A stretch of 64,000 bases of DNA from Eledone cirrhosa (taxonomy: Eukaryota), in the NCBI GenBank assembly GCA_964016885.1, contig OZ024741.1, forward strand, positions 268,832,001 to 268,896,000. Reading direction: 5' to 3'. Position 1 is the first letter of the stretch; every line of letters starts with the position of its first letter. Below, in pieces: positions 2,846-58,867 of this stretch. The position numbers and the translations under genes are program-made. A model generated the notes under the pieces. That model did not search any database. It was not told where the DNA came from and was given only the letters and a program-made list of their open reading frames with translations.

Positions 2846-5800
2846 TTACAGAAAACAAATTATATTATATTATACATTAAATGTTGGAAAGAATTAGGTA
2901 AATTTAAAGATAATATTTGTTTGTGTTTGAAGTGAAGTATGATATAATATATTTGCCGGAGACCTCAGTACCAGCAGCAGACAGACATGGTTGTATTTAT
3001 TTTGTCTGTGTTGTAGAGAGCGTAAGGCTGGTAGGCTCTACTATATTCTTCTCGTGTTGTAACAAACCCCGAAATATAACAACATATTGATTGTGTGTGC
3101 AGAGAAATCCTTATTTTACAACTGCATTGCTAGAAAAGATAGTTTCCTCTTTTGCTGTTGTCGTTGTTGCTGTTGTGTTTGTTTCTGTATTTTTTTTTTT
3201 TTTTTTTTTTTTGCTTTTTTAAAATTATTTATTTATTTCCCCCTGTCTTCTTCATTCCACTGATTTTATCTCTGGCAAGCTGTCTGAAACATAAGGGACG
3301 GCTGCTGTTTCTCTAGCAACAATTAATTGTAGCTAGCAATAGTTAATAAGGCACCAATACTTGATTGGGCATGTATTTATTGAAATTATTCTCTGATTGA
3401 AAATTCACTCTGCTATTTTCTTTCTTTCTATCTTTAAATCATAATGGGTCTTTTTTTTTGTTTTTGTTTTTGTGTTATGTTTGGTTCCATATTTCATAGC
3501 ATCACTGAAACGGGTGACTAATTACTTGAAATATTTCTGTCTTAGAATCTTCCACTTAATAGTTTGTTAGGTGGTGCAGACAGCGGTGTGTCTGTGAGAT
3601 GTTGTAAACCCATTTACTTACTACTAGTACAGGCAAATAAAAATAATTTTAGTGAGACAAACTACTGTATTTTGTTATCAAAACCCTTTTGATACAAAAC
3701 CTTCTAATACTGCCCTTGATTCTATGATATAAAGCTGTATATTTTAGTGTTTATGTTATTGTTGTTGCTTTGCAATAGAGAAAAAGAATTTTAAGTATCG
3801 TTCATCAATTTATTACATCCTTACATTTCTACTTCACATTTTTCATACAAAACCGTCTGAAACTGCCCCTAATTCTATAATATAAACCTGTCTATTTTAA
3901 AAGTGTTTATGTTTATCTAATAACCTTCCATCATATTTCTATGTTCAGTTATGTTCCAACAGAAGCTTAATAGTGAGAAAATTAGTTATATTATTAAATC
4001 CCTCCAAATTTGTGATTAGTTTTAAATGGCTTGAACATTACAGGCAGTGTATTTTATGAGAAATATTGTTATGAAAGGGTTAAATGTAGTTTGAAGATTA
4101 TTTGTCTTCCAAAATATTAAGTATATTCTTTTATTCTTTTACCGGTTCCCCCCATTGGAGTGAGACCATGCTGGGGTACTACTTTGAAGGATTTTAGTCA
4201 ATCATGTCAACCTGAGTAAACAAACGTGTGGTTGTTAGGTAGTTCCAATGTAAATATAAATATGGGCAGGCTTCCTCACAAGGCATTAGCTGGCTTCAGA
4301 TTATAACATATAGCAGAAGACACAGAAGGTAGACTGAACCCAAAACCATATGGGTTGCGAAATCAGATTTTTAACCACACTTTCATGCCTGCTCCTATCT
4401 GTTATCTATTTATATTTGTAGTTCTTGCTTAGGAAATTAATGTCTTTATGATTTAGCATAAGAGAAAATCTTGCAGTTAAACTGACTGTAAATCAAATCA
4501 TCACCATCACCATTATCATTATATGGCTATCTTTCCATGTTGGATTAAATATTTATCTAAATCTTTCAGCCTCCTTACCTTCTTATGTGATAACAGTCAA
4601 TTATTTTCACCTCAAGGAGAGCTGCTATGTCATTGCTTGACCTTTTTAACCCTTTTTATACTAACCCAGCCAAAAACCCACTTTCATTCTATGAGTTCCC
4701 ATTTAAAGAATTCCATTTAAATTTAAATCTTCCAACATAATTTTATATAAGAATCATATGTCAAGTTACTATATTTGTAATGAAATAAATAATATATTTT
4801 CTAAATCGCTCAAACTTCTTTATTAATTAATTGAAACAGTGTATTTCATAAGAAATGTGGCCAAGAAATGGTTAAAGCAGGAGAATACCATATATACTTG
4901 GGGATAAGTCGCAACTTAGATGACTTGCGCCTCTTTTGTATTTATAATATTTTGGCTTCATTATTTAATATTTCAAGATGAGAACAAGGTTCGGTAGATA
5001 AGTTGCATGTGGATTTTTATGCATTGAACTTTTGCTAGCAAAGCATAGGGACATAGGATGATGATGATTGGGATAGGAGGGCTAAACAAAACCCACTGCC
5101 TTACCAATAATAGTTCTTCCTATAGACCCATCTACTTGATCTAATAATTATTTTGAGAATCTCTGGTTGTTTAGCTTGCTATTGATTAACTTATTTTGTA
5201 GTAACACTGGTGAAAGTGGTGGTGATGGTAGTGACAGTGGTGGTGATGTTTGTGTTGATAGCGACAGTAGTGAGGTTCGTGGTGGTGGTATCACTTTGAA
5301 CTGTTGGTGTGTTTGTGCATGGTGTGAGTATTTTTATAAGGCATTATTAGTGATGCTTCTGGTCAGTGTAAACATATTTTAGACCAGACTGGTTTCACTT
5401 AATTTCCTTCATTTAACTAGAACTATTTGCTAGTTTTCGCACAGTTTGTGCCAATGAAGGAAATTTCTTTTCATATGGCCCTATCTCTCATTGTCCAATA
5501 GAACAATGATATTATGGCAGGTTCCACATATGTGGTACTATATCCTATGAGGGCTATTATTACTGTTGTCATGTTCAAGAACTAATTTTGACATGTTTAT
5601 ATTAGATAAACTATTCCTTAATACCATATCTAGGTAAACATTAACCTCTTAAACCAATGAGACCCACTTGTATTAAAAAGTTACTTTTACTAAATATTAT
5701 TGTATTGAAATTCCTCACAATAATGGTGAGTCATCAGTGCTGGATTTACGCCTGCATTTACCATGCTGGCATGGATATTTGTGTGTGTATATATATATGT

Positions 5801-5973: not shown

Positions 5974-6216
<243 letters not shown>

Positions 6217-10294: not shown

Positions 10295-11580
10295 ATGATG
10301 CAGTTTGGTTTTGTGCCTGGGAAAAATACAACAGATGCCCTCTCCTTAGTGAGACAACTACAAGAGAGGTTCTTAGAGAAGAATAAGCCACCATACTTAG
10401 CTTTGATAGGGTACCCCTATCTGTCATCTGGTTGTCCCTAAGGAAACTAGGTGTAGAGGAATGGCTTGTGAGGACAGTGCGAGCTATGTACAGGGGTGCT
10501 ATCAGGGTTCGGTCCTCAGCCCGCTCTTGTTCATTATAGTCTTCCAAGCCATAACAGAGGAGTTTAAGACTGGCTGCCCATGGGAACTTCTCTATGCTGA
10601 CGATCTGGTATTTATAGCAGAATCAGTAGAGGAACTAGAGAATAAATTCTGGCTATGGAAACATCAGTTGGAGTTAATAGGACTGAGAGTAAACCTAGCT
10701 AAGACTAAAGTGTTGATAAGGAGAAAAGAGGACAAAACCCTGATTCCATCATGGAAATGGCCATATTCGATATGTAGAAAAGGAGTTGTCATAAATTCTA
10801 TAAAATATACACAATGCACATCTTGGGTACACAAGAGATGTAGTGGGATAGCAGGCAAACTAACAGGTAGGGAAAACTACATATGCAGTAGATGTACAGG
10901 AAAATTTGACAGTAGAAGTCACAGTGATAGATACATTTTTCAAATGCAGGTAGGATCTATAGAAGTGGTTGATATCTTCCAGTACCTAGGTGATCAGATT
11001 AGCAAGGGAGGGGGTGCTCCAAAGCCATAGTATCTAGAAGAAGGATGGGTTGGAAGAAGTTTAGGGAGCTGCTTCCTCTGTTGACAAAGAAGGGTTTCTC
11101 CCTGTTAACGAAAGGCCAGTTATATGATGTCTGTGCAGGATGCGCCATGCTGCATGGTAGTGAGACATGGGCAGCAACTGTGGAGGATATGCGACAGCTA
11201 GAGAGAAATGAAGGAAGCATGTTCCATTGAATGTGCAATGTCAATGTGTGCGAATGACCAAGTATAGATGAGTTCAGAGAGAAACTCTGTATAGGAGAGA
11301 TACGTTGTAGTGTGCGGGAGAGAAGACTGGTATGGACATGTGATGCGCATGGAGGATGACCGCTGGGTAAAGAAGTGCCAAGAAATCCCAGTAGAAGGGA
11401 GACGCAGTACAGGAAGACCACGAAAAACATGGGCGGAGGTGGTGAGAGCAGACCCCAGATCGCTGAAGCTCACAGAGGAGATGATGAAGACCCGTGACAA
11501 ATGGAGAGATGCTGTGCTGAATAAGACCCGTCCTACTCTTGCAACCAGGGAAAACGGACGTAAAATGATGGTGATGATGA
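10295..11580 (+). mobile_element. 5'-truncated, decayed RTE-clade LINE (RT C-terminal half plus 3' end)
   Basis: QFGFVPG, QGSVLSPLLF, LLYADDL, YLG and GRPRKTW motifs across frames, with stops and frameshifts; ends GGGAAAACGGACGTAAAATGATG. Confidence 0.93.
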
Positions 11581-11746: not shown

Positions 11747-11782
11747 TTTTCTGATAAAGGACTAGCGCCCAAAACATTAAAA
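11747..11782 (+). ncRNA. Decayed minimal type I hammerhead-like motif (family of 57522)
   Basis: TTTT-CTGATAA-A-GGAC TAGC GCCC-AAAA-CA-T-T-AAAA; G8 and G12 are lost; the downstream flank matches 57560-57600. Confidence 0.6.
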
Positions 11783-13970: not shown

Positions 13971-14029
13971 TGTATATAATTATATATTCGTGTACAGATA
14001 TTTTTGCATACACAAAAAGAAAATATCAA

Positions 14030-15111
14030 CAACCGTATTTATTTCACAATAACACAGACGGCTTATCGTCACTGTTACTGCCGATATGCCACCCAAAAAG
14101 TCCCATGTGTGGAGGAAGACCTGGAGGGTGATCCTACACACATATTACGGCTGAAGAAAGGAATTTCAATAATGCTGCTTCGGAATCTGGAGCCACCAAA
14201 GCTATGCAACGGCACACGACTGGTTGTAAAAAATTGCTGCCCCATCTTATCGAGGCTACTATCCTTTCAGGAAGTGGGGACGACGTATTCATTCCGTGAG
14301 TTCCTCTCATTCCATTCTATTTTCCTTTTGGAGACTTCAATTTCCAATTCGTGTCAGCTTTGCAATGTCTATCAACAAACCCCAGTTGCTGGTCTTCTTT
14401 TGGAAGAGTCATGTTTTGCACACGGGCAACTATACGTTGGCTGCTCAAGAGTGGGAAACAAGACAAATCTCTTTGCATATGCCCGACACGGAAGAACAAG
14501 GAACATTGTGCTACAATCATTTTTGAGGTAGACGAGGCAGAAGGGGATATACACGATTGGCTGAAGAAGGACGAGACTGTGTTAGTAGTACGACCAACGG
14601 CTGCTATCACACCAACAGCAGCAAAAACAACAACAAAAAAGAGAGGGAACGCAATTACATGCTTTTGAAAAATCGTAATGGAAAATTATTTGCCTATTCG
14701 CCCAAGGCGACTTCACTTTTTATTAGGACTTCTGCATCAATTGGTGAACATACAACGAAACATTGAAAGGAGTAAGACAACACCACTCTCCACCACTGCA
14801 GTCCCACATGCTTACTGCTCTCTAACTATTGCTTTCACTGTACCATAATACAACAAATACATGTTCGATTTGTCGAATGCCTTTTTACTTAACCCTATCG
14901 TCTTGGCTTTCGTGGGTTGAACATTTTACTCTCAGGCACCCAATTAAGTTAAACCCCTGGTAATCTACGACAAATTTTTTTTATAAGCACAAAATGTAGA
15001 CACCATCTTGAGGCCGAGGTATTCTGTACTTCTCTGTACTATTTCAGAAAGGAGGGATAAACATGCGAATCTATGTTTAGAATCCTAAGCAACGCCGGGC
15101 CATTCTGCTAG
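14030..15111 (+). mobile_element. Helitron remnant: PIF1-type helicase C-terminus plus 3' terminus
   Basis: LRLKKGISIMLLRNLEPPKLCNGTRLVV, RLQFPIRVSFAMSINK (SQGQ deleted) and HGQLYVGCSRV, frameshifted. 3' end GCAACGCCGGG...CTAG|T at 15108-15112. Confidence 0.88.
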
Positions 15112-20965: not shown

Positions 20966-21547
20966 CACGCATCATAAATCAAGCTATATATGGCAGTCAT
21001 ATCCAAAGACTGGTGCTGTAGTATTCTCCTAAATTGCTACAAAGATAAAGGGGATGCTCTGGAGAGGAGCAATTATAGGGGTATAAAGCTGATGGATCAG
21101 GTTATGAAAGTGGCAGAGAGAATATTAGCGCAACTGATTAAAGGAAGGGTCAAACTAGATGAGATGCAGTTTAGTTTTGTGCCTGGGAAAAGTACAACTG
21201 AGGCCCTCTTCTTAGTGAGGCAACTACAAGAGAGGTTCTTAGAGAAGAATAAGCCACTATAAGCTTTTGTTGACCTAGAGAAGGCCTTTGATAGTGTACC
21301 TCGATCTGTCATCTGGTGGTCCCTAAGGAAACTAGGTGTAGAGGAATGGCTTGTGAGGGCAGTGCAAGCTATGTACACTAAAGTGAGAGTAGGAATGGAG
21401 TTTAGTGAGGAATTCCAGATACAAGTAGGAGTACATCAGCACACTCTTGTTCATTATAGTCCTCCAAGCTATAGCAGAGGAGTTTAAGACTAGCTGCCTA
21501 TGGGAACTTCTCTATGCCGATGATCTGGTTCTTATAGCAGAATCAGT
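20966..21547 (+). mobile_element. RTE LINE RT fragment
   Basis: YKDKGDALERSNYRGIKL, AFVDLEKAFDSV, LLYADDL. Confidence 0.92.
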
Positions 21548-22292
21548 CCACTTTTCCCTGCTTGCAAGGGTGGGACGGGTCCTATTCAGCACAGCCTCTC
21601 GCCACTTGTCATGGTCCTTCGTCATCTCCTCCGTGAGTTTCAGGGATCTGAGTTCTGTTCTCACCACCTCCGCCCATGTTTTTCCTGGTCTTCCTCTCCT
21701 GCGTCACCCTACAACTGGGATTTCTTGGCACTTCTTTACCCATGCGCATCACATGTCCATACCATCGCAGTCTTCTCTCCCGCACACTACAACTTATCCC
21801 GCTTATACACTGTTTCTCTCTAAACTCATCTATGCTTGGTCATTCACACACATTGACATTGCACATCCAACGGAGCATACTTGCTTCATTTCTCTGCAGC
21901 CGTTGCATATCCTCTGCAGTTGCTGCCCATGTCTCACAACCATGCAGCATCGTGCATCTCACACAGGCATCATATAACCAGCCTTTCATATGCAGGGAGA
22001 AACCCTTTCTCAACAGAGGAAGCAGCTTCCTAAACTTCTTCCAACCGGTCCTTATTCTAGATACTATGGCTTTGGAAAACCCCCCTCCCATGCTAATCTG
22101 ATCACCTTGGTACTGTAAGCTATCAACCACTTCTATAGAACCAATTTACATTTGAAAAATGTGTCTATCACTGTGACTTCTACTGTCAAATTTCCCTGTA
22201 CATCTACTGCGTACGTAGTTTTCCCTACCTGTTAGTTTGCCTACTATCCCACTACATCTCTTGTGTACCCAAGATCTCCACTGTGTACATTT
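21548..22292 (-). mobile_element. RTE LINE 3' fragment, inverted relative to 20966-21547
   Basis: Reverse complement matches 10800-11560, including the 3' tail. Confidence 0.92.
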
Positions 22293-22412
22293 TAAGGAAT
22301 ATATATATATATTTAACTAATATATATTTCTCATTGTATTGTGTTGTTTGCTTTGATATTTCTGTTTGGTTTTTGTATACATACATACATATATGTGTGG
22401 GTGTGTTTATAT

Positions 22413-29722: not shown

Positions 29723-30051
29723 TATAAATATAAGCTATCGCCGTATTTTGACTAAAGAAATTAAAGAAATTATTTAGCCTGATAGTGGGGTTAAGAACCC
29801 TCGGAGAAATGGAAAAAGATGAGTATTGACGTACATGGGAGTCGAACCCACATCTTTGGTTATCCAGACTACTGTGCTACCATCGGTGTAATGGCAGCAC
29901 AGTGGTCTGGATAACCAAAGATGTGGGTTCGACTCCCATGTACGTCAATACTCATCTTTTTCCATTTCTCCGAGGGTTCTTAACCCCACTATCAGGCTAA
30001 ATAATTTCTTTAATTTCTTTAGTCAAAATACGGCGATAGCTTATATTTATA
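29723..30051. repeat. Near-perfect palindrome (161-bp arms, 7-nt loop) made of a tRNA-derived element
   Basis: 29723-29883 is the reverse complement of 29891-30051 with 2 differences. The right arm carries A box GGTGTAATGGCAGCAC and T-arm GTGGG-TTCGACT-CCCAT. Confidence 0.93.
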
Positions 30052-40107: not shown

Positions 40108-40948
40108 AATATAATATATGTGTATGTGTACATATATATGCGTATGTGTGTGTGTATATATATATATAAAATATGTGTATGTGTACATATATATGCATAT
40201 GCGTGTGTGTATATGTATGTTTGAATATATGTGTGTGTATGTATATGTCATGTGTGTGTATATATATATATATTTATAGTAAGGGGTTAACTGAACAAGG
40301 ATGTGTGGACCACATAATGGTCTGTCGGTTGTGAAGTAGATAATATATATATATATATATATATACATCTACATACATATATGTATGCATATGATGTGTC
40401 ATCATTATCATCATCACCATTTAATGTCTATTTTCCATGTCGCATGCTGAATCCAGACTGGTCAGGTGACTAGGTCCTGCTCATACACTTTGTTTTGGCT
40501 TGGATTCTAAAACTTGATGCCCTTCCTAATGCCAACCATTTTACAGTGTGTACTGGGAGCATGTTTTCTACAGCTGGATGCCCTTTACAGCATGTATTTT
40601 ACTGTATATACTGGGAACATTTTATCGTGACTCCAGCACAACCACTTTGTAGGGTAAACTGGGTGCTGTTCATTGTGGCACCAGCATTACTCACCTTATA
40701 GGGTGTACTGGCTTTCGTAGTGGCACCAGTACTACTTCATTTCAACGCTAAAATGTTCAGTATACATAGTCATGCTGGGGAGAGGGAGATTAGTGTGGGT
40801 TGAGGCTAGGGTACAGGCATTGCATTGCTAGGGGGAAATCATGGTGGCATCCCTGAAAAAAGTGGATGCTGTCTGACATATTGTGAGGTGTGCCAGGTTT
40901 TCCTTGGTTGGGAAAGTGTTTCTATTTCATCTTTTATTTCTTTTTCTA

Positions 40949-40984
40949 TCTTCTGATGAAGTACTAGTGTAAGAAATGTAAAGA
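40949..40984 (+). ncRNA. Minimal type I hammerhead-like motif (family of 57522)
   Basis: TCTT-CTGATGA-A-GTAC TAGT GTAA-GAAA-TG-T-A-AAGA; core intact. Confidence 0.68.
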
Positions 40985-41085
40985 CTCTTTTCCTGCTATA
41001 TCAAGTATTAAACTAATATATTTCTTCATTGTACTGTTTTGTTTGGTTTGTTGTTTTCGTTTACTTTTTGCAACTCTCTCTCTAC

Positions 41086-51198: not shown

Positions 51199-51965
51199 CA
51201 GGGTGCGAACGATATTTGTTCGCAAGATTACTGGCTAGGAAATAAATAACACAGTAGTTTTATTTTTTAAGATTTATTTATCAAACTTGCGTCAGTTTGT
51301 CTTTATGACTTGTTCTTTCGATCTCACTCAATAAACCCGCCATTGGCTTTGATGACAGCCTCAAGGCGGCCTCGGAACCAGCTACAGGCCCTCGTCACTG
51401 TCCCCCGACTTAGGCAATTGTGATCCTGGCCTTCAGACCGTCTTTTGTATTGCAGCTAGATCTGTTGGTGTCTCGTTCCACTGCGCCCCACACAAAGAAG
51501 TCGAGGGGGTTGCAGTCAGGCGAGCTAGGAGGCCAGATGCCAGGTGAAGTGTGGTCAACGAAGTTCTCTGACAGCCAGGCTTGGGTCTTTCGGCTGGTAT
51601 GGCAGGGTGTTGAGACTTGCTGCCATACGTATGGCCTATCTGCAGCTACCTGGTCGAGCCAGGGCTTTACTACCTCGCTAAGTATGCGGATGTAGCCATC
51701 GGTGTTCAGCTTGAGGCCCTCAGGGAAGAAGTGAGGTGGTATGACGTCACCTTGACTGCTGACTACACCTAAGACCACTCTTGTCGCTGGAAACTTTGTC
51801 TGCATGACTCTAGGCATGTCTTTGGATGAGACAGCGAGCCACCTGTTGTTCTGGGAGTTGATCTTCTGGTCTTGGCAGAAGTTTTTTCTCGTCGGAGAAA
51901 AACCACAGCATGTCTGGCTCCAGTGGGTGTTTCAACTTGTTGATCAGCTTCTATGCGTGCTTCAG
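51199..51965 (-). mobile_element. Tc1/mariner DD37D (maT-type) transposase remnant with one terminal repeat
   Basis: FFSDEK, VWQQ(V)STPCH, WPPSSPDCNPLDFFVWG. There are 37 residues between the second acidic position (mutated D>V) and the third D. End is TA|CAGGGTG; the 5' half is missing. Confidence 0.9.
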
Positions 51966-55000: not shown

Positions 55001-57295
55001 TCATCATTATCATTTTACGTCCACTTTTCCCTGCTTGCAAGGGTTGGACGGGTCCTATTCAGCACAGCATCTCTCCACATGTAACGGTCCTTCGTCATCT
55101 CCTCGGTGAGTTTCAGCGATCTGAAGTCTGCTCTTACCACCTCCGCCCATGTTTTTCGTGGTCTACCCCTACTGCATCTTCCTTCTACTGGGATTTCTTG
55201 GCACTTCTTTACCCAGCGGTCATCCTCCATGTGCATCACATGTCAATACCATCTCAGCCTTCTCTCCTGCACACCACAACTTATCCCTCTTATACCCAGT
55301 TTCTTTTTAAACTCGTCTATGCTTGGTCGTTCACGCACATTGACATTGCACATCCAACGGAGCATACTTGCTTCATTTCTCTCCAGCCGTCGCATATCCT
55401 GCTGCCCAAGTCTCACTACCATGCAGCATCGCGCATTTCACACAGGCATCATATAACCGTCCTTTCGTACACAGGGAGAAACCTTTCTTTGTCAACAACG
55501 GAAGCAGCTCCCTAAACTTCTTCCAAACTGTCCTTATTCTAGATACTATGGCCTTGGAACCCCCCCCCCCCCTCCCATGCTAATCTGATCACCTAGGTAC
55601 CGGAAGCTATCAACCACTTCTATAGAATCCACCTGCATTGGAAAAATGTGTCTGTCACTGTGATTACTGCTGCACATCTACTGCATACGTAGTTTTCCTT
55701 ACCTGTTAGTTTTCCTGCTATCCCACTACATTTCTTGTGTACCCAAGATGTGCATTGTGTACATTTTATAGAATTTATGCCAGTTCCTTTCCTACATATT
55801 GAACATAGCCATTTCCCTGATGGAATCGGAGTATTGTTCTCTCTCCTACTTATCAACACTTTTGTCTTAGCTATGTTCACTCTCAGTCCTGCTGATTCCA
55901 ACTGCTGTTTCCATAGCCAGAATTTATTCTCTAGCTCCTTTACTGATTCTGCTATAAGAACCAGATCATTAGCATAGAGAAGTTCCCATGGGCAGCCAGT
56001 CTTAAACTCCTCTGTTATGGCTTGGAGGACTATAATGAACAAGAGCGGGTTGAGGACCGAACCCTGATGTACACCTACTTGTATCTGGAATTCCTCACTA
56101 AACTCCATACCTACTCTCACTTTACTGACAGCACCCCTGTACATAGCTTGCACTGTCCTCACAAGCCATACCTCAACACCTAGTTTCCTGAGGGATCACC
56201 AGATGACAGATCGGGGTACCCTATCAAAGGCCTTCTCTAGGTCAACAAAAGCTAAGTATAGTGGCTTATTCTTCTCTAAGAACTTGTAGTTGCCTCACTA
56301 AGAAGAGGGCATCTGTTGTACTTTTCCAAGGCACAAAACCAACTTGCATCTCATCTAATTTGACCCTTTCTCTAATTAGTTGCGCTAATATTCTCTCTGC
56401 CACTTTCATAACCTGATCCATCAGCTTTATGCCCCTATAATTGCTCCTCTCTAGAGCATCCCCTTTACCTTTGTAACAATTTATGAGAATACTGCTGCAC
56501 CGGTCTTTGGGTATGACACCACCATATATAGCCTGATTGATGATGCGTGCAACCAGTTTAATGCCTACTTTACCTGATGCCTTCAGCATATCAGCAACTA
56601 TCCCCGATGGTCCAGCAGCCTTACCATTCTTCATTTCTTTAATTGACTCTTCTACCCTATATTCGTCAATATCAATAGCTGATCCCTCTGTCGGGTCTAC
56701 TGAGGGTAATTTCTCTCTGTCCCATTCGTTCTCCACATTTATCAGACTCTCATAGTGTCATTTCCAGGCCTCCCTTTTTTGATCATTCGTGACACTAAGT
56801 ACACCAGCATCATTTTGGACACACTTATCTCCAACAACATTCTGATTTGCACTGACACACTGCCTTGCAATGCGGAATACCGCACGTCTCTGATCTTCCG
56901 TTGCAGAACATTGGCAAACCTCCTACTCTCGGCCTCCCTGCATGCTAAGTACACCTGACGTCTTCTCTCTTAGCGACTGTGTATCCTTCCCTACTCACAC
57001 CATTTTTCCAAGCCTTCCATGCCAGTCTTTTGTCTCTAATGGCCCTATCTACCATGCTGTTCCACCACCAGGTCACTCTCTGTCTGGTTGAAGCTCTGCC
57101 CCAACCACAAGTTTCTTTAGTAGCCTGCAGTAAGTTGTCACGTAAGAAATTCCAGTTATCATCTATATCATACAACTCTAAATCGTCTTCTTTTTCGTCA
57201 TACACGTCTTGAAGGGCTTTGCTAAATTTATATTTTAATGAAAGGTCTTTTAGCTTCCAGACCTTTCTTTTCCACACCTTCCTGTATGTCTCATT
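55001..57295 (-). mobile_element. Largest RTE-clade LINE copy (~2.3 kb; 5'-truncated, frameshifted)
   Basis: TWWWN, GKAAGPSGI, YKGKGDALERSNYRGIKL, QGSVLNPLLF, LLYANDL, a Cys-rich segment (CSIC...CTQC...H..C...CSRC), GRPRKTW and the 3' tail. Confidence 0.95.
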
Positions 57296-57418: not shown

Positions 57419-57521
57419 TATATATATATATATACACACACGAGATGTCAACATGAATGGACCTGTTATTTTTATCTAAAGACATTTTTTCTAATTCAAA
57501 ACCGCTCGTCTCCTCCTTCTT

Positions 57522-57557
57522 TCTTCTGATGAAGGACTAGCGTCCGAAACGTTAAGA
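57522..57557 (+). ncRNA. Minimal type I hammerhead ribozyme-like motif, core intact
   Basis: TCTT-CTGATGA-A-GGAC TAGC GTCC-GAAA-CG-T-T-AAGA; 4-bp stems I and II; palindromic ACGT in place of stem III. Confidence 0.8.
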
Positions 57558-57807
57558 CCCTCTTCCTGCTATATCAAGCGTTAACCTAATATATTCCGTC
57601 CATATACTGTACCGATTTCTGATTGTGTTATATAAACATATATATACACACACCCACACACATATATATATATACACATAAATATACACACACATACATA
57701 TATATATATATACACACACATAAATACACTCTATATATATATACACACACACACACACATCTTTTTTTCATTACCATTATAAGGGGTCTGACAAGCCGTG
57801 GATTACA

Positions 57808-58203
57808 GAGTGTAACTTGGAGTTACTGTATGTTCACCCGGGTGAGCACTCAATGTTTAGGTTCACTTCTGTGTTGAGGTGTAGAGCTAGACAGAGTGTA
57901 TTATAGTAAAATAAAACAAGGACGATTGGTTACTCATTCATTACATTTATTGGTTGGTGATGTGCGTTTTGCCACTGATCAGCTCAAGGTTTGATCTGTA
58001 TCGATCTCGATACAGATCGAACCTTGAGCTGATCAGTGGCGCAACGCGCGTCACCAACCAATAAATGTAATGAATGAGTAACCAATTGTCCTTGTTTTAT
58101 TTTACTATAATACACTCTGTCTAGCTCTACACCTCAACACAGAAGTGAACCTAAACATTGAGTGCTCACCCGGGTGAACATACAGTAACTCCAAGTTACA
58201 CTC
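57808..58203. repeat. Palindrome with 197-bp arms and a 2-nt centre, derived from a hammerhead-bearing repeat
   Basis: 57808-58004 is the reverse complement of 58007-58203 with about 6 differences. Confidence 0.93.
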
Positions 58204-58807: not shown

Positions 58808-58867
58808 TATTTTATCTGATGAAAGCATACCATAATTTGGTATCCTTGAAATACATATAATAAAATA
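58808..58867 (+). ncRNA. Type I hammerhead ribozyme-like motif, core intact
   Basis: TATTTTAT-CTGATGA-AAGCATACC ATAATTT GGTATCCTT-GAAA-TACATA-T-A-ATAAAATA; 8-bp stem I, 8/9-bp stem II, near-palindromic stem III. Confidence 0.82.

What the first reader, a model, noticed from the sequence alone, without database searches (positions are those of the whole stretch)
57522..57557. Three-copy family shows compensatory changes in hammerhead stems
Seen: 57522 has stem I TCTT/AAGA and stem II GGAC/GTCC. The copy at 11747 has TTTT/AAAA (C-G to T-A pair swap in stem I). The copy at 40949 has GTAC/GTAA (G-C to T-A swap in stem II) and keeps CTGATGA/GAAA with a GUA triplet. All three share the downstream CT(A)GYATATCAAG...TAATATATT flank. 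Inference: pairing was maintained in the source elements, supporting a functional ribozyme; three copies are too few for statistics.
Basis: partly seen in the sequence, partly recalled or inferred. Interest (0 to 1): 0.75.

Follow-up and report, generated by a model that had tools for sequence, protein, structure and literature searches.

The report
Penelope hammerhead; swaps are copy decay
This is a minimal hammerhead-ribozyme motif of a known kind in the end piece of a Penelope-type jumping gene with thousands of copies in the genome; the two 'compensatory' base swaps are rare or absent among the copies' closest relatives and are likely chance decay, so they do not show that the ribozyme works.

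Summary
The three copies and their letters are real. They are 150-220-bp, 5'-truncated end pieces (pLTRs) of a Penelope-like element with reverse transcriptase, Cys linker and GIY-YIG nuclease. The motif sits both downstream and upstream of that ORF, and 3,160 copies match the intact form exactly. 57522-57557 has every feature of the published minimal type I hammerhead of Penelope-like elements. At the stem I pair, 20 of 29 closest relatives of 11747 have a T·G wobble and only 3 have T-A; that copy has also lost G8 and G12. The stem II swap of 40949 occurs in 0 of 29 relatives and comes with loss of the conserved G10.1-C11.1 pair. No stem pair covaries in a 118-copy alignment, and inserted copies decay equally inside and outside the motif. 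Real but modest signs of selection on source elements exist elsewhere: the motif changes less than its flanks between subfamilies, and a sister family swaps a different stem II pair. No pile-up of copy starts at the cut site (1 of 29). The scan has reported such Penelope hammerheads on other DNA (58 notes, at least 19 genomes). Ordinary.

The parts
57439..57628 (+). 5'-truncated pLTR stub of a Penelope-like element, subfamily A (youngest of the three), between (CA/TA)n microsatellites; small deletion upstream of the motif; 3' end approximate
   Evidence: matches positions 3343-3530 of the 3.5-kb element body at 88%; 28 relative alignments start at 57439; sequence
57522..57557 (+). intact minimal type I hammerhead motif: helix I 4 bp, CUGAUGA box, unpaired A, helix II 4 bp, GAAA, palindromic ACGU without loop 3, GUU triplet; predicted cut between 57553 and 57554
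   Evidence: no difference from its subfamily majority inside the motif; features as in PMC4209133
11654..11869 (+). 5'-truncated pLTR stub, older subfamily B (5' end approximate)
   Evidence: relatives at 83-89%; boundaries
11747..11782 (+). dead hammerhead: G8, G12 and G16.2 changed to A, one helix II pair broken; the helix I T-A pair is the subfamily T plus a sporadic G>A at 11781
   Evidence: relatives at this pair: TG 20, CG 3, TA 3, TC 2, CA 1 of 29
40919..41072 (+). 5'-truncated pLTR stub, older subfamily C (GUA triplet common in this subfamily)
   Evidence: relatives at 87-90%; boundaries
40949..40984 (+). damaged hammerhead: private G>T (40962) and adjacent C>A, C>A (40971-72) give a T-A pair but break G10.1-C11.1; C15.2>T
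   Evidence: T-A at this pair in 0 of 29 relatives

Best explanation
57522-57557 is an intact minimal hammerhead motif in a truncated end piece (pLTR) of a Penelope-like retrotransposon, and the two base-pair swaps in the other copies are likely post-insertion decay rather than compensation in source elements. Shown: full elements carry the motif on the coding strand about 270-620 nt after the GIY-YIG region and again just before the ORF, about 3.5 kb apart; copies share a fixed 3' end in (AT/AC)n and have scattered 5' ends. Inferred: the element's reverse transcriptase starts at the pLTR end, probably priming on nicked (TA)n DNA, and stops early, which leaves stubs like these three. Inferred: only elements that keep transposing are under selection; their motif would cut slowly, as a dimer paired through ACGU, to trim or circularise tandem RNA, and most templates seem to be copied uncut. 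A lone stub such as 57522 has no partner in cis and is likely inert.
For: Element: ORF pieces with the YIDD motif, C-x4-C-xx-C linker and GIY-YIG; RVT_1 E 5.5e-8, above the Pfam cut-off in one of three frames tested; 101 homologs at E<=1e-20, most annotated PF00078/PF26215 and some PF01541. Motif downstream of 27 of 31 nuclease-region loci (two of them the same place). pLTR within 400 nt upstream of 21 of 30 ORF starts, 18 of them including the motif. Two-motif units at 3,466 and 3,524 nt spacing. Swaps: relatives' pair counts. Genome-wide counts at the stem I pair with intact core: C-G 3,160, C·A 191, T·G 182, T-A 23. Of 20 T-A copies fetched, 6 have A-type flanks, 13 B/C-type, 1 unclear, so the swap recurs independently. 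Double changes at the stem II pair: 32 genome-wide, 18 Watson-Crick against 16.3 expected from marginals, T-A once. Copies chosen by the nuclease region decay equally in motif (23/594) and flanks (48/1,667), p=0.27. 23 of 29 incidental copies span the cut site; 1 starts within 3 nt of it.
Against: T-A at the stem I pair is about twice the independence expectation (23 against 11; odds ratio 2.1, p=0.003). I put this down to age: loop II is mutated in 13 of 23 T-A rows against 10 of the first 100 C-G rows (counted by eye; p=4e-6), and G>A is the commonest decay. A small T-A source lineage is not excluded. Relatives were top hits, not a random sample; that biases towards sharing the swap, so the test is conservative, but it covers only 29 per copy. 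GIY-YIG matches are below the Pfam cut-off (E 0.047 and 0.008). Cleavage, dimer formation and expression were not observed. The predicted monomer and dimer folds are not the hammerhead fold.
Confidence: 0.88

Rival explanations
1. One reading: the swaps at 11747 and 40949 were fixed in active source elements to keep the helices paired.
For: Both double changes are present. Subfamily B did fix the C>T half (T in 25 of 29 relatives). T-A copies are about twice the independence expectation genome-wide.
Against: The partner change is sporadic (T-A in 3 of 29) or absent (0 of 29) among the closest relatives. Both carrier copies have broken catalytic or closing positions. T-A copies fall in different subfamilies and look older. 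No stem pair covaries.
Confidence: 0.05
2. The motif is kept in source elements for a job other than cis self-cleavage (a protein-binding site, a promoter or 5'-UTR element, or a ribozyme half completed by another RNA).
For: Younger sister families keep the core, helix II and the ACGU palindrome but pair only 0-2 of the four helix I positions in 30 of 30 loci; 4,392 exact matches. No strand that could complete helix I was found in one full unit. No cut-site footprint. In the anole element, ribozyme mutants inserted normally in vitro and no RNA reads ended at the cut (PMC11167929).
Against: The family in question has a 4-bp helix I, largely kept in subfamilies A-C. The catalytic positions are what is kept, and N7 and H17 vary as the ribozyme allows. 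Published minimal hammerheads do cut weakly as dimers, and the anole one cuts with C3-G8 dependence. The footprint sample is small.
Confidence: 0.25
3. The repeat is an independent non-autonomous retrozyme or SINE family rather than stubs of the Penelope-like element.
For: Most copies are short and lack coding sequence; no Penelope protein match in the window. Retrozymes derived from pLTRs are described (bioRxiv 10.64898/2026.07.22.740005).
Against: 5' ends are scattered from about 400 nt upstream to 41 nt downstream of the cut site; no tandem short unit was seen in the loci examined; stub sequence is collinear with the element's end.
Confidence: 0.05

Closest known systems
Minimal hammerheads (min-HHR) in pLTRs of metazoan Penelope-like elements (Cervera and De la Pena 2014, PMC4209133; read parts 1-2 of 4 of the text, not the supplements)
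   Same: Core boxes, extra nucleotide between 9 and 10.1, G10.1-C11.1, palindromic 15.2-16.2, 4-bp helix I, a copy in each flanking repeat 3-3.5 kb apart, thousands of solo copies from truncated elements, sister families that differ by compensatory changes.
   Different: Helix II is 4 bp here, against 7-8 bp in the Schistosoma families of that paper. This family was not seen in the text read; the unread supplementary alignments may hold it or a relative.
Neptune/Nematis clades of endonuclease-bearing Penelope-like elements (Craig et al. 2021, PMC8557442; read the introduction and 12 passages)
   Same: C-terminal GIY-YIG, CX2-5CxxC linker between RT and nuclease, partial tandems and inverted 5'-truncated neighbours, insertion into microsatellites.
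   Different: Neptune against Nematis not resolved: no tree with named references was built.
Poseidon element PAc of Anolis (Frangieh et al. 2024, PMC11167929; read 12 passages)
   Same: pLTR hammerhead; AT-rich targets; insertions ending at fixed internal start sites; templates mostly uncut.
   Different: Other clade (Penelope/Poseidon, described without the Cys linker). Its ribozyme overlaps the ORF start; here the motif lies about 110 nt before the pLTR end, which an (AT)n tract separates from the body.
Non-LTR retrozymes (bioRxiv 10.64898/2026.07.22.740005; read part 1 of 5 and 12 passages)
   Same: Type I hammerhead, pLTR ancestry.
   Different: Retrozymes are tandem non-coding units; these copies are variably truncated ends of a coding element.

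Membership tests
minimal type I hammerhead of Penelope-like elements | Catalytic boxes CUGANGA and GAAA with an NUH triplet | tested here: met
   57522 copy; kept at 40949; broken at 11747
minimal type I hammerhead of Penelope-like elements | Helices I and II can pair; G10.1-C11.1; one extra base after A9 | tested here: met
   8 of 8 pairs in the 57522 copy; G10.1-C11.1 broken in the 40949 copy
minimal type I hammerhead of Penelope-like elements | Palindromic 15.2-16.2, helix III minimal or absent | tested here: met
   ACGU at 57549-52, no loop 3
minimal type I hammerhead of Penelope-like elements | Located in both pLTRs of a Penelope-like element | tested here: met
minimal type I hammerhead of Penelope-like elements | Covariation of stem pairs | tested here: inconclusive
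   none within subfamilies A-C; one clean swap between families at helix II pair 3, with G-C 94, A-T 3, G·T 3, A·C 0 in the first 100 of 4,392 sister matches; too few independent families for statistics
minimal type I hammerhead of Penelope-like elements | Self-cleavage as a dimer | not testable with these tools
   needs an assay; no cut-site footprint among 29 copies
Rfam hammerhead models | Match to a curated covariance model | tested here: not met
   no hammerhead family among 3 matches at E<=10 for 57470-57620; expected for a motif without helix III (inference)
Penelope-like element, Neptune/Nematis type | Reverse transcriptase followed by C-terminal GIY-YIG | tested here: met
   RVT_1 E 5.5e-8; GIY-YIG weak, E 0.047 and 0.008 in the sister family; homologs carry both
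Penelope-like element, Neptune/Nematis type | CX2-5CxxC linker before the nuclease; two Cys inside the GIY-YIG core | tested here: met
   seen in frames of 5 of 6 family loci scanned and in the sister unit
Penelope-like element, Neptune/Nematis type | Partial tandems (pLTRs), 5' truncation, microsatellite targets | tested here: met
Penelope-like element, Neptune/Nematis type | RT phylogeny places it in Neptune or Nematis | not tested
   no named reference set
non-LTR retrozyme | Tandem short non-coding units, each with a hammerhead | tested here: not met
   single, variably truncated ends collinear with a coding element

The most novel reading that the evidence does not exclude
This genome's Penelope-like elements show the hammerhead losing its cutting arm while the rest is still selected. 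The older family keeps a 4-bp helix I. The recently spreading sister families (over 4,000 intact matches, many letter-identical) keep the catalytic core, helix II (with an A-U to G-C swap) and the ACGU palindrome, but pair only 0-2 positions of helix I. The motif would then be maintained for a non-cleaving or trans-completed role, and the two families would be a natural pair for asking what Penelope hammerheads are for.
Probability: 0.2. Interest if true: 0.5.

Novelty: new member of a known kind. Interest (0 to 1): 0.13.

Why it matters
Little for the finding as given: minimal hammerheads in Penelope-like elements, their thousands of solo copies and compensatory differences between families were published in 2014. 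The lesson is one of method. In an AT-drifting genome, C>T on one strand of a helix and G>A on the other rebuild a pair by chance, so double changes between dead copies are not covariation. The open question in the field, whether these ribozymes cut in vivo and matter for transposition, is not moved by these three copies. The long-helix and short-helix sister families could serve to test it.

Tried and rejected
Rfam: one search gave only microsatellite and palindrome artefacts among the 150 of 224 matches shown; no hammerhead model. Thermodynamic folding of the monomers is uninformative (z -1.1, 0.7, 0.1). Pfam found nothing significant in the first degenerate frames. Sequencing runs: no RNA holder listed, so no reads were laid; this says nothing about expression. 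Cut-site footprint, a lead from earlier notes: not seen (1 of 29 copies in families A-C, about what an even spread gives; 1 of 8 in the sister families). One of the 29 starts at a locus edge and one is a doubtful hit. Search for a strand completing the sister family's helix I in one full unit: none. Script faults, not used as evidence: nearest-neighbour identities (free end gaps gave false 1.0 values), the greedy clustering, the upstream-motif count of 0 (faulty pattern; one search used instead), and the descriptor scan, which stopped early. Alignment A2 is hand-picked and selected on the core, so its invariance is partly by construction. Rows dropped before the counts: L031 and L032 (same place as L026); one divergent incidental copy in L018 was set apart. 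Paper searches listed no paper on this particular family; supplements were not read.

Full report
Observation. The 57522 copy is a complete minimal type I hammerhead: helix I 57522-25 with 57554-57, core box 57526-32, one unpaired A, a 4-bp helix II closed by G10.1-C11.1, GAAA, the palindrome ACGU with no loop 3, a GUU triplet and a predicted cut after 57553. The copies are homologous. On the three-copy alignment 57 of 500 shuffles reach the observed two double changes. Rfam has no hammerhead match here.

What the repeat is. The window lies in a 3.0-Gb animal genome. Close relatives of 57522 share a fixed 3' end running into (AT/AC)n and differ in their 5' ends. Walking upstream reaches frames with the RT motif YIDD, a C-x4-C-xx-C linker and a GIY-YIG nuclease. 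RVT_1 scores E 5.5e-8 in one frame; GIY-YIG is weak (E 0.047). The RT has 101 homologs at E<=1e-20, most annotated PF00078/PF26215 and some PF01541. The motif follows the nuclease region on the same strand in 27 of 31 loci (two are the same place). A pLTR lies within 400 nt upstream of 21 of 30 ORF starts, 18 of them with the motif. Full units have two motifs about 3.5 kb apart. This is the architecture of Neptune/Nematis-type Penelope-like elements (PMC8557442, introduction and passages) and of their minimal hammerheads (PMC4209133, parts 1-2 of 4). The window copies are stubs of the element's end; no Penelope protein sequence lies in the window. Copy number: 3,160 exact intact matches; 9 copies in 1.0 Mb of evenly spaced stretches give about 27,000 (12,000-51,000).

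Test of the stem I swap. Searches with each copy gave three subfamilies. Among the 29 closest relatives of 11747 the pair reads T·G 20, C-G 3, T-A 3, T·C 2, C·A 1. The source therefore carried a one-sided change to a wobble pair, and the G>A is sporadic, one of four G>A changes in that copy's motif. Genome-wide, with an intact core required, the counts are C-G 3,160, C·A 191, T·G 182, T-A 23. The T-A copies are, however, older. The unpaired loop II is mutated in 13 of 23 of them, against 10, 24 and 20 of the first 100 rows of the other three classes (counted by eye; tests). Of 20 fetched, 6 have subfamily-A flanks, 13 B/C flanks and 1 is unclear; two are duplicates of each other. Recurrent decay explains this better than a source lineage, though a small lineage is not excluded.

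Test of the stem II swap. None of the 29 closest relatives of 40949 has it. A genome search for motifs changed on both sides of this pair, without asking for pairing, found 32 in all; 18 are Watson-Crick against 16.3 expected from the marginals, and one is T-A. In 40949 the 3' change is half of an adjacent CC>AA change that also breaks the conserved closing pair.

Deep alignment. In 118 copies no stem pair stands out: the best ranks 132 of 4,005 column pairs, and the top ranks are subfamily markers in the flanks. In 25 copies chosen only by their nuclease region, non-CpG decay is 23/594 in the constrained positions and 48/1,667 in the flanks (p=0.27). Inserted copies are not under selection for the ribozyme.

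Where selection does show. Between subfamily majorities the motif changes less than the flanks: A against B 1/36 and 16/81 (p=0.02); A against C 2/36, both at free positions (loop II and H17), and 17/81 (p=0.055); B against C no contrast (3/36 and 3/81). A sister element, 67% identical in the body, keeps the core and swaps helix II pair 3 from A-U to G-C. In the first 100 of 4,392 sister matches that pair is G-C 94, A-T 3, G·T 3, A·C 0. The commonest sister type also differs at the two inner helix I pairs (C-G and A-U), but across 30 sister loci only 0-2 of the four helix I positions pair. The sisters were found through the motif, so core conservation is partly by construction. Such between-family compensation is already stated in PMC4209133.

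How it likely works. Shown: position in both pLTRs, fixed 3' and scattered 5' ends, microsatellite flanks. Inferred: the RT primes near the pLTR end and stops early. In the anole Poseidon element, reverse transcription starts internally at the sites where genomic copies end, AT-rich DNA is cut, ribozyme mutants insert normally and no RNA reads end at the cut (PMC11167929, passages). Here 23 of 29 incidental copies span the cut site and 1 begins within 3 nt of it. That fits uncut templates, though religated circles would look the same. Published minimal hammerheads show no monomer activity and low dimer activity, and the predicted folds here are not the hammerhead fold. The most likely role is slow dimer cleavage of tandem RNA in the few active elements; the lone stub at 57522 is likely inert, and the other two likely dead or crippled. 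Expression could not be examined.

Verdict. A new member of a known kind. The hammerhead call is right; the covariation argument from these three copies is not. Earlier notes of this scan describe the same kind of thing in other genomes; they gave the footprint lead, which was tested here and not found. Supplements of the cited papers were not read and may list this family or a close relative. Interest 0.13.

Noticed in passing
L284 (full unit, motif at 6140 on -), L182-L211, L306-L335: Young sister Penelope-like families: 20 of the top 40 hits are letter-identical over 161 nt, 4,392 intact motif matches, helix I only 0-2 bp.
   Followed up: partly
window 58810-58865 (+): A second, AT-rich hammerhead-like motif unrelated to this family: both core boxes, and by eye a 6-bp helix I, an interrupted helix II and a 2-bp helix III. 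Not tested against chance.
   Followed up: no
L080:742(+), L123:4278(-), L128:3086(-); L052:2624(+): Two further hammerhead families in this genome, one with a long helix II and one canonical-looking type I motif.
   Followed up: no
about 190-210 nt upstream of the motif in longer copies (L002, L009, L012, L026): A pyrimidine tract ending in CAG, like a splice acceptor, inside the pLTR; Penelope-like elements carry pLTR introns. Absent from the window stubs.
   Followed up: no
L213-L241: In tandem arrangements the pLTR end and the element body are joined by a short (AT)n tract of variable length; it could serve as the priming site on (TA)n targets (inference).
   Followed up: partly
window 57808-58203 and 29778-29996: Long near-perfect palindromes (197-nt arms, 97%; hairpin seen). 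Fold-back structures of other repeats also occur in several fetched loci.
   Followed up: no
window 59108 to about 61200: 19-bp tandem repeat array.
   Followed up: no
window 10410-11027 (+), 55623-56195 (-), 21429-21974, 13980-14528 (+), 51413-51931 (-): Fragments of other mobile elements: RTE-like reverse transcriptase, a Helitron-type helicase and a Tc1/mariner-type transposase. Names are recalled from motifs, not tested.
   Followed up: no
window 22315-22366 (+): Possible fourth, tail-only piece of the same pLTR without the motif (profile E 7.6e-4).
   Followed up: no
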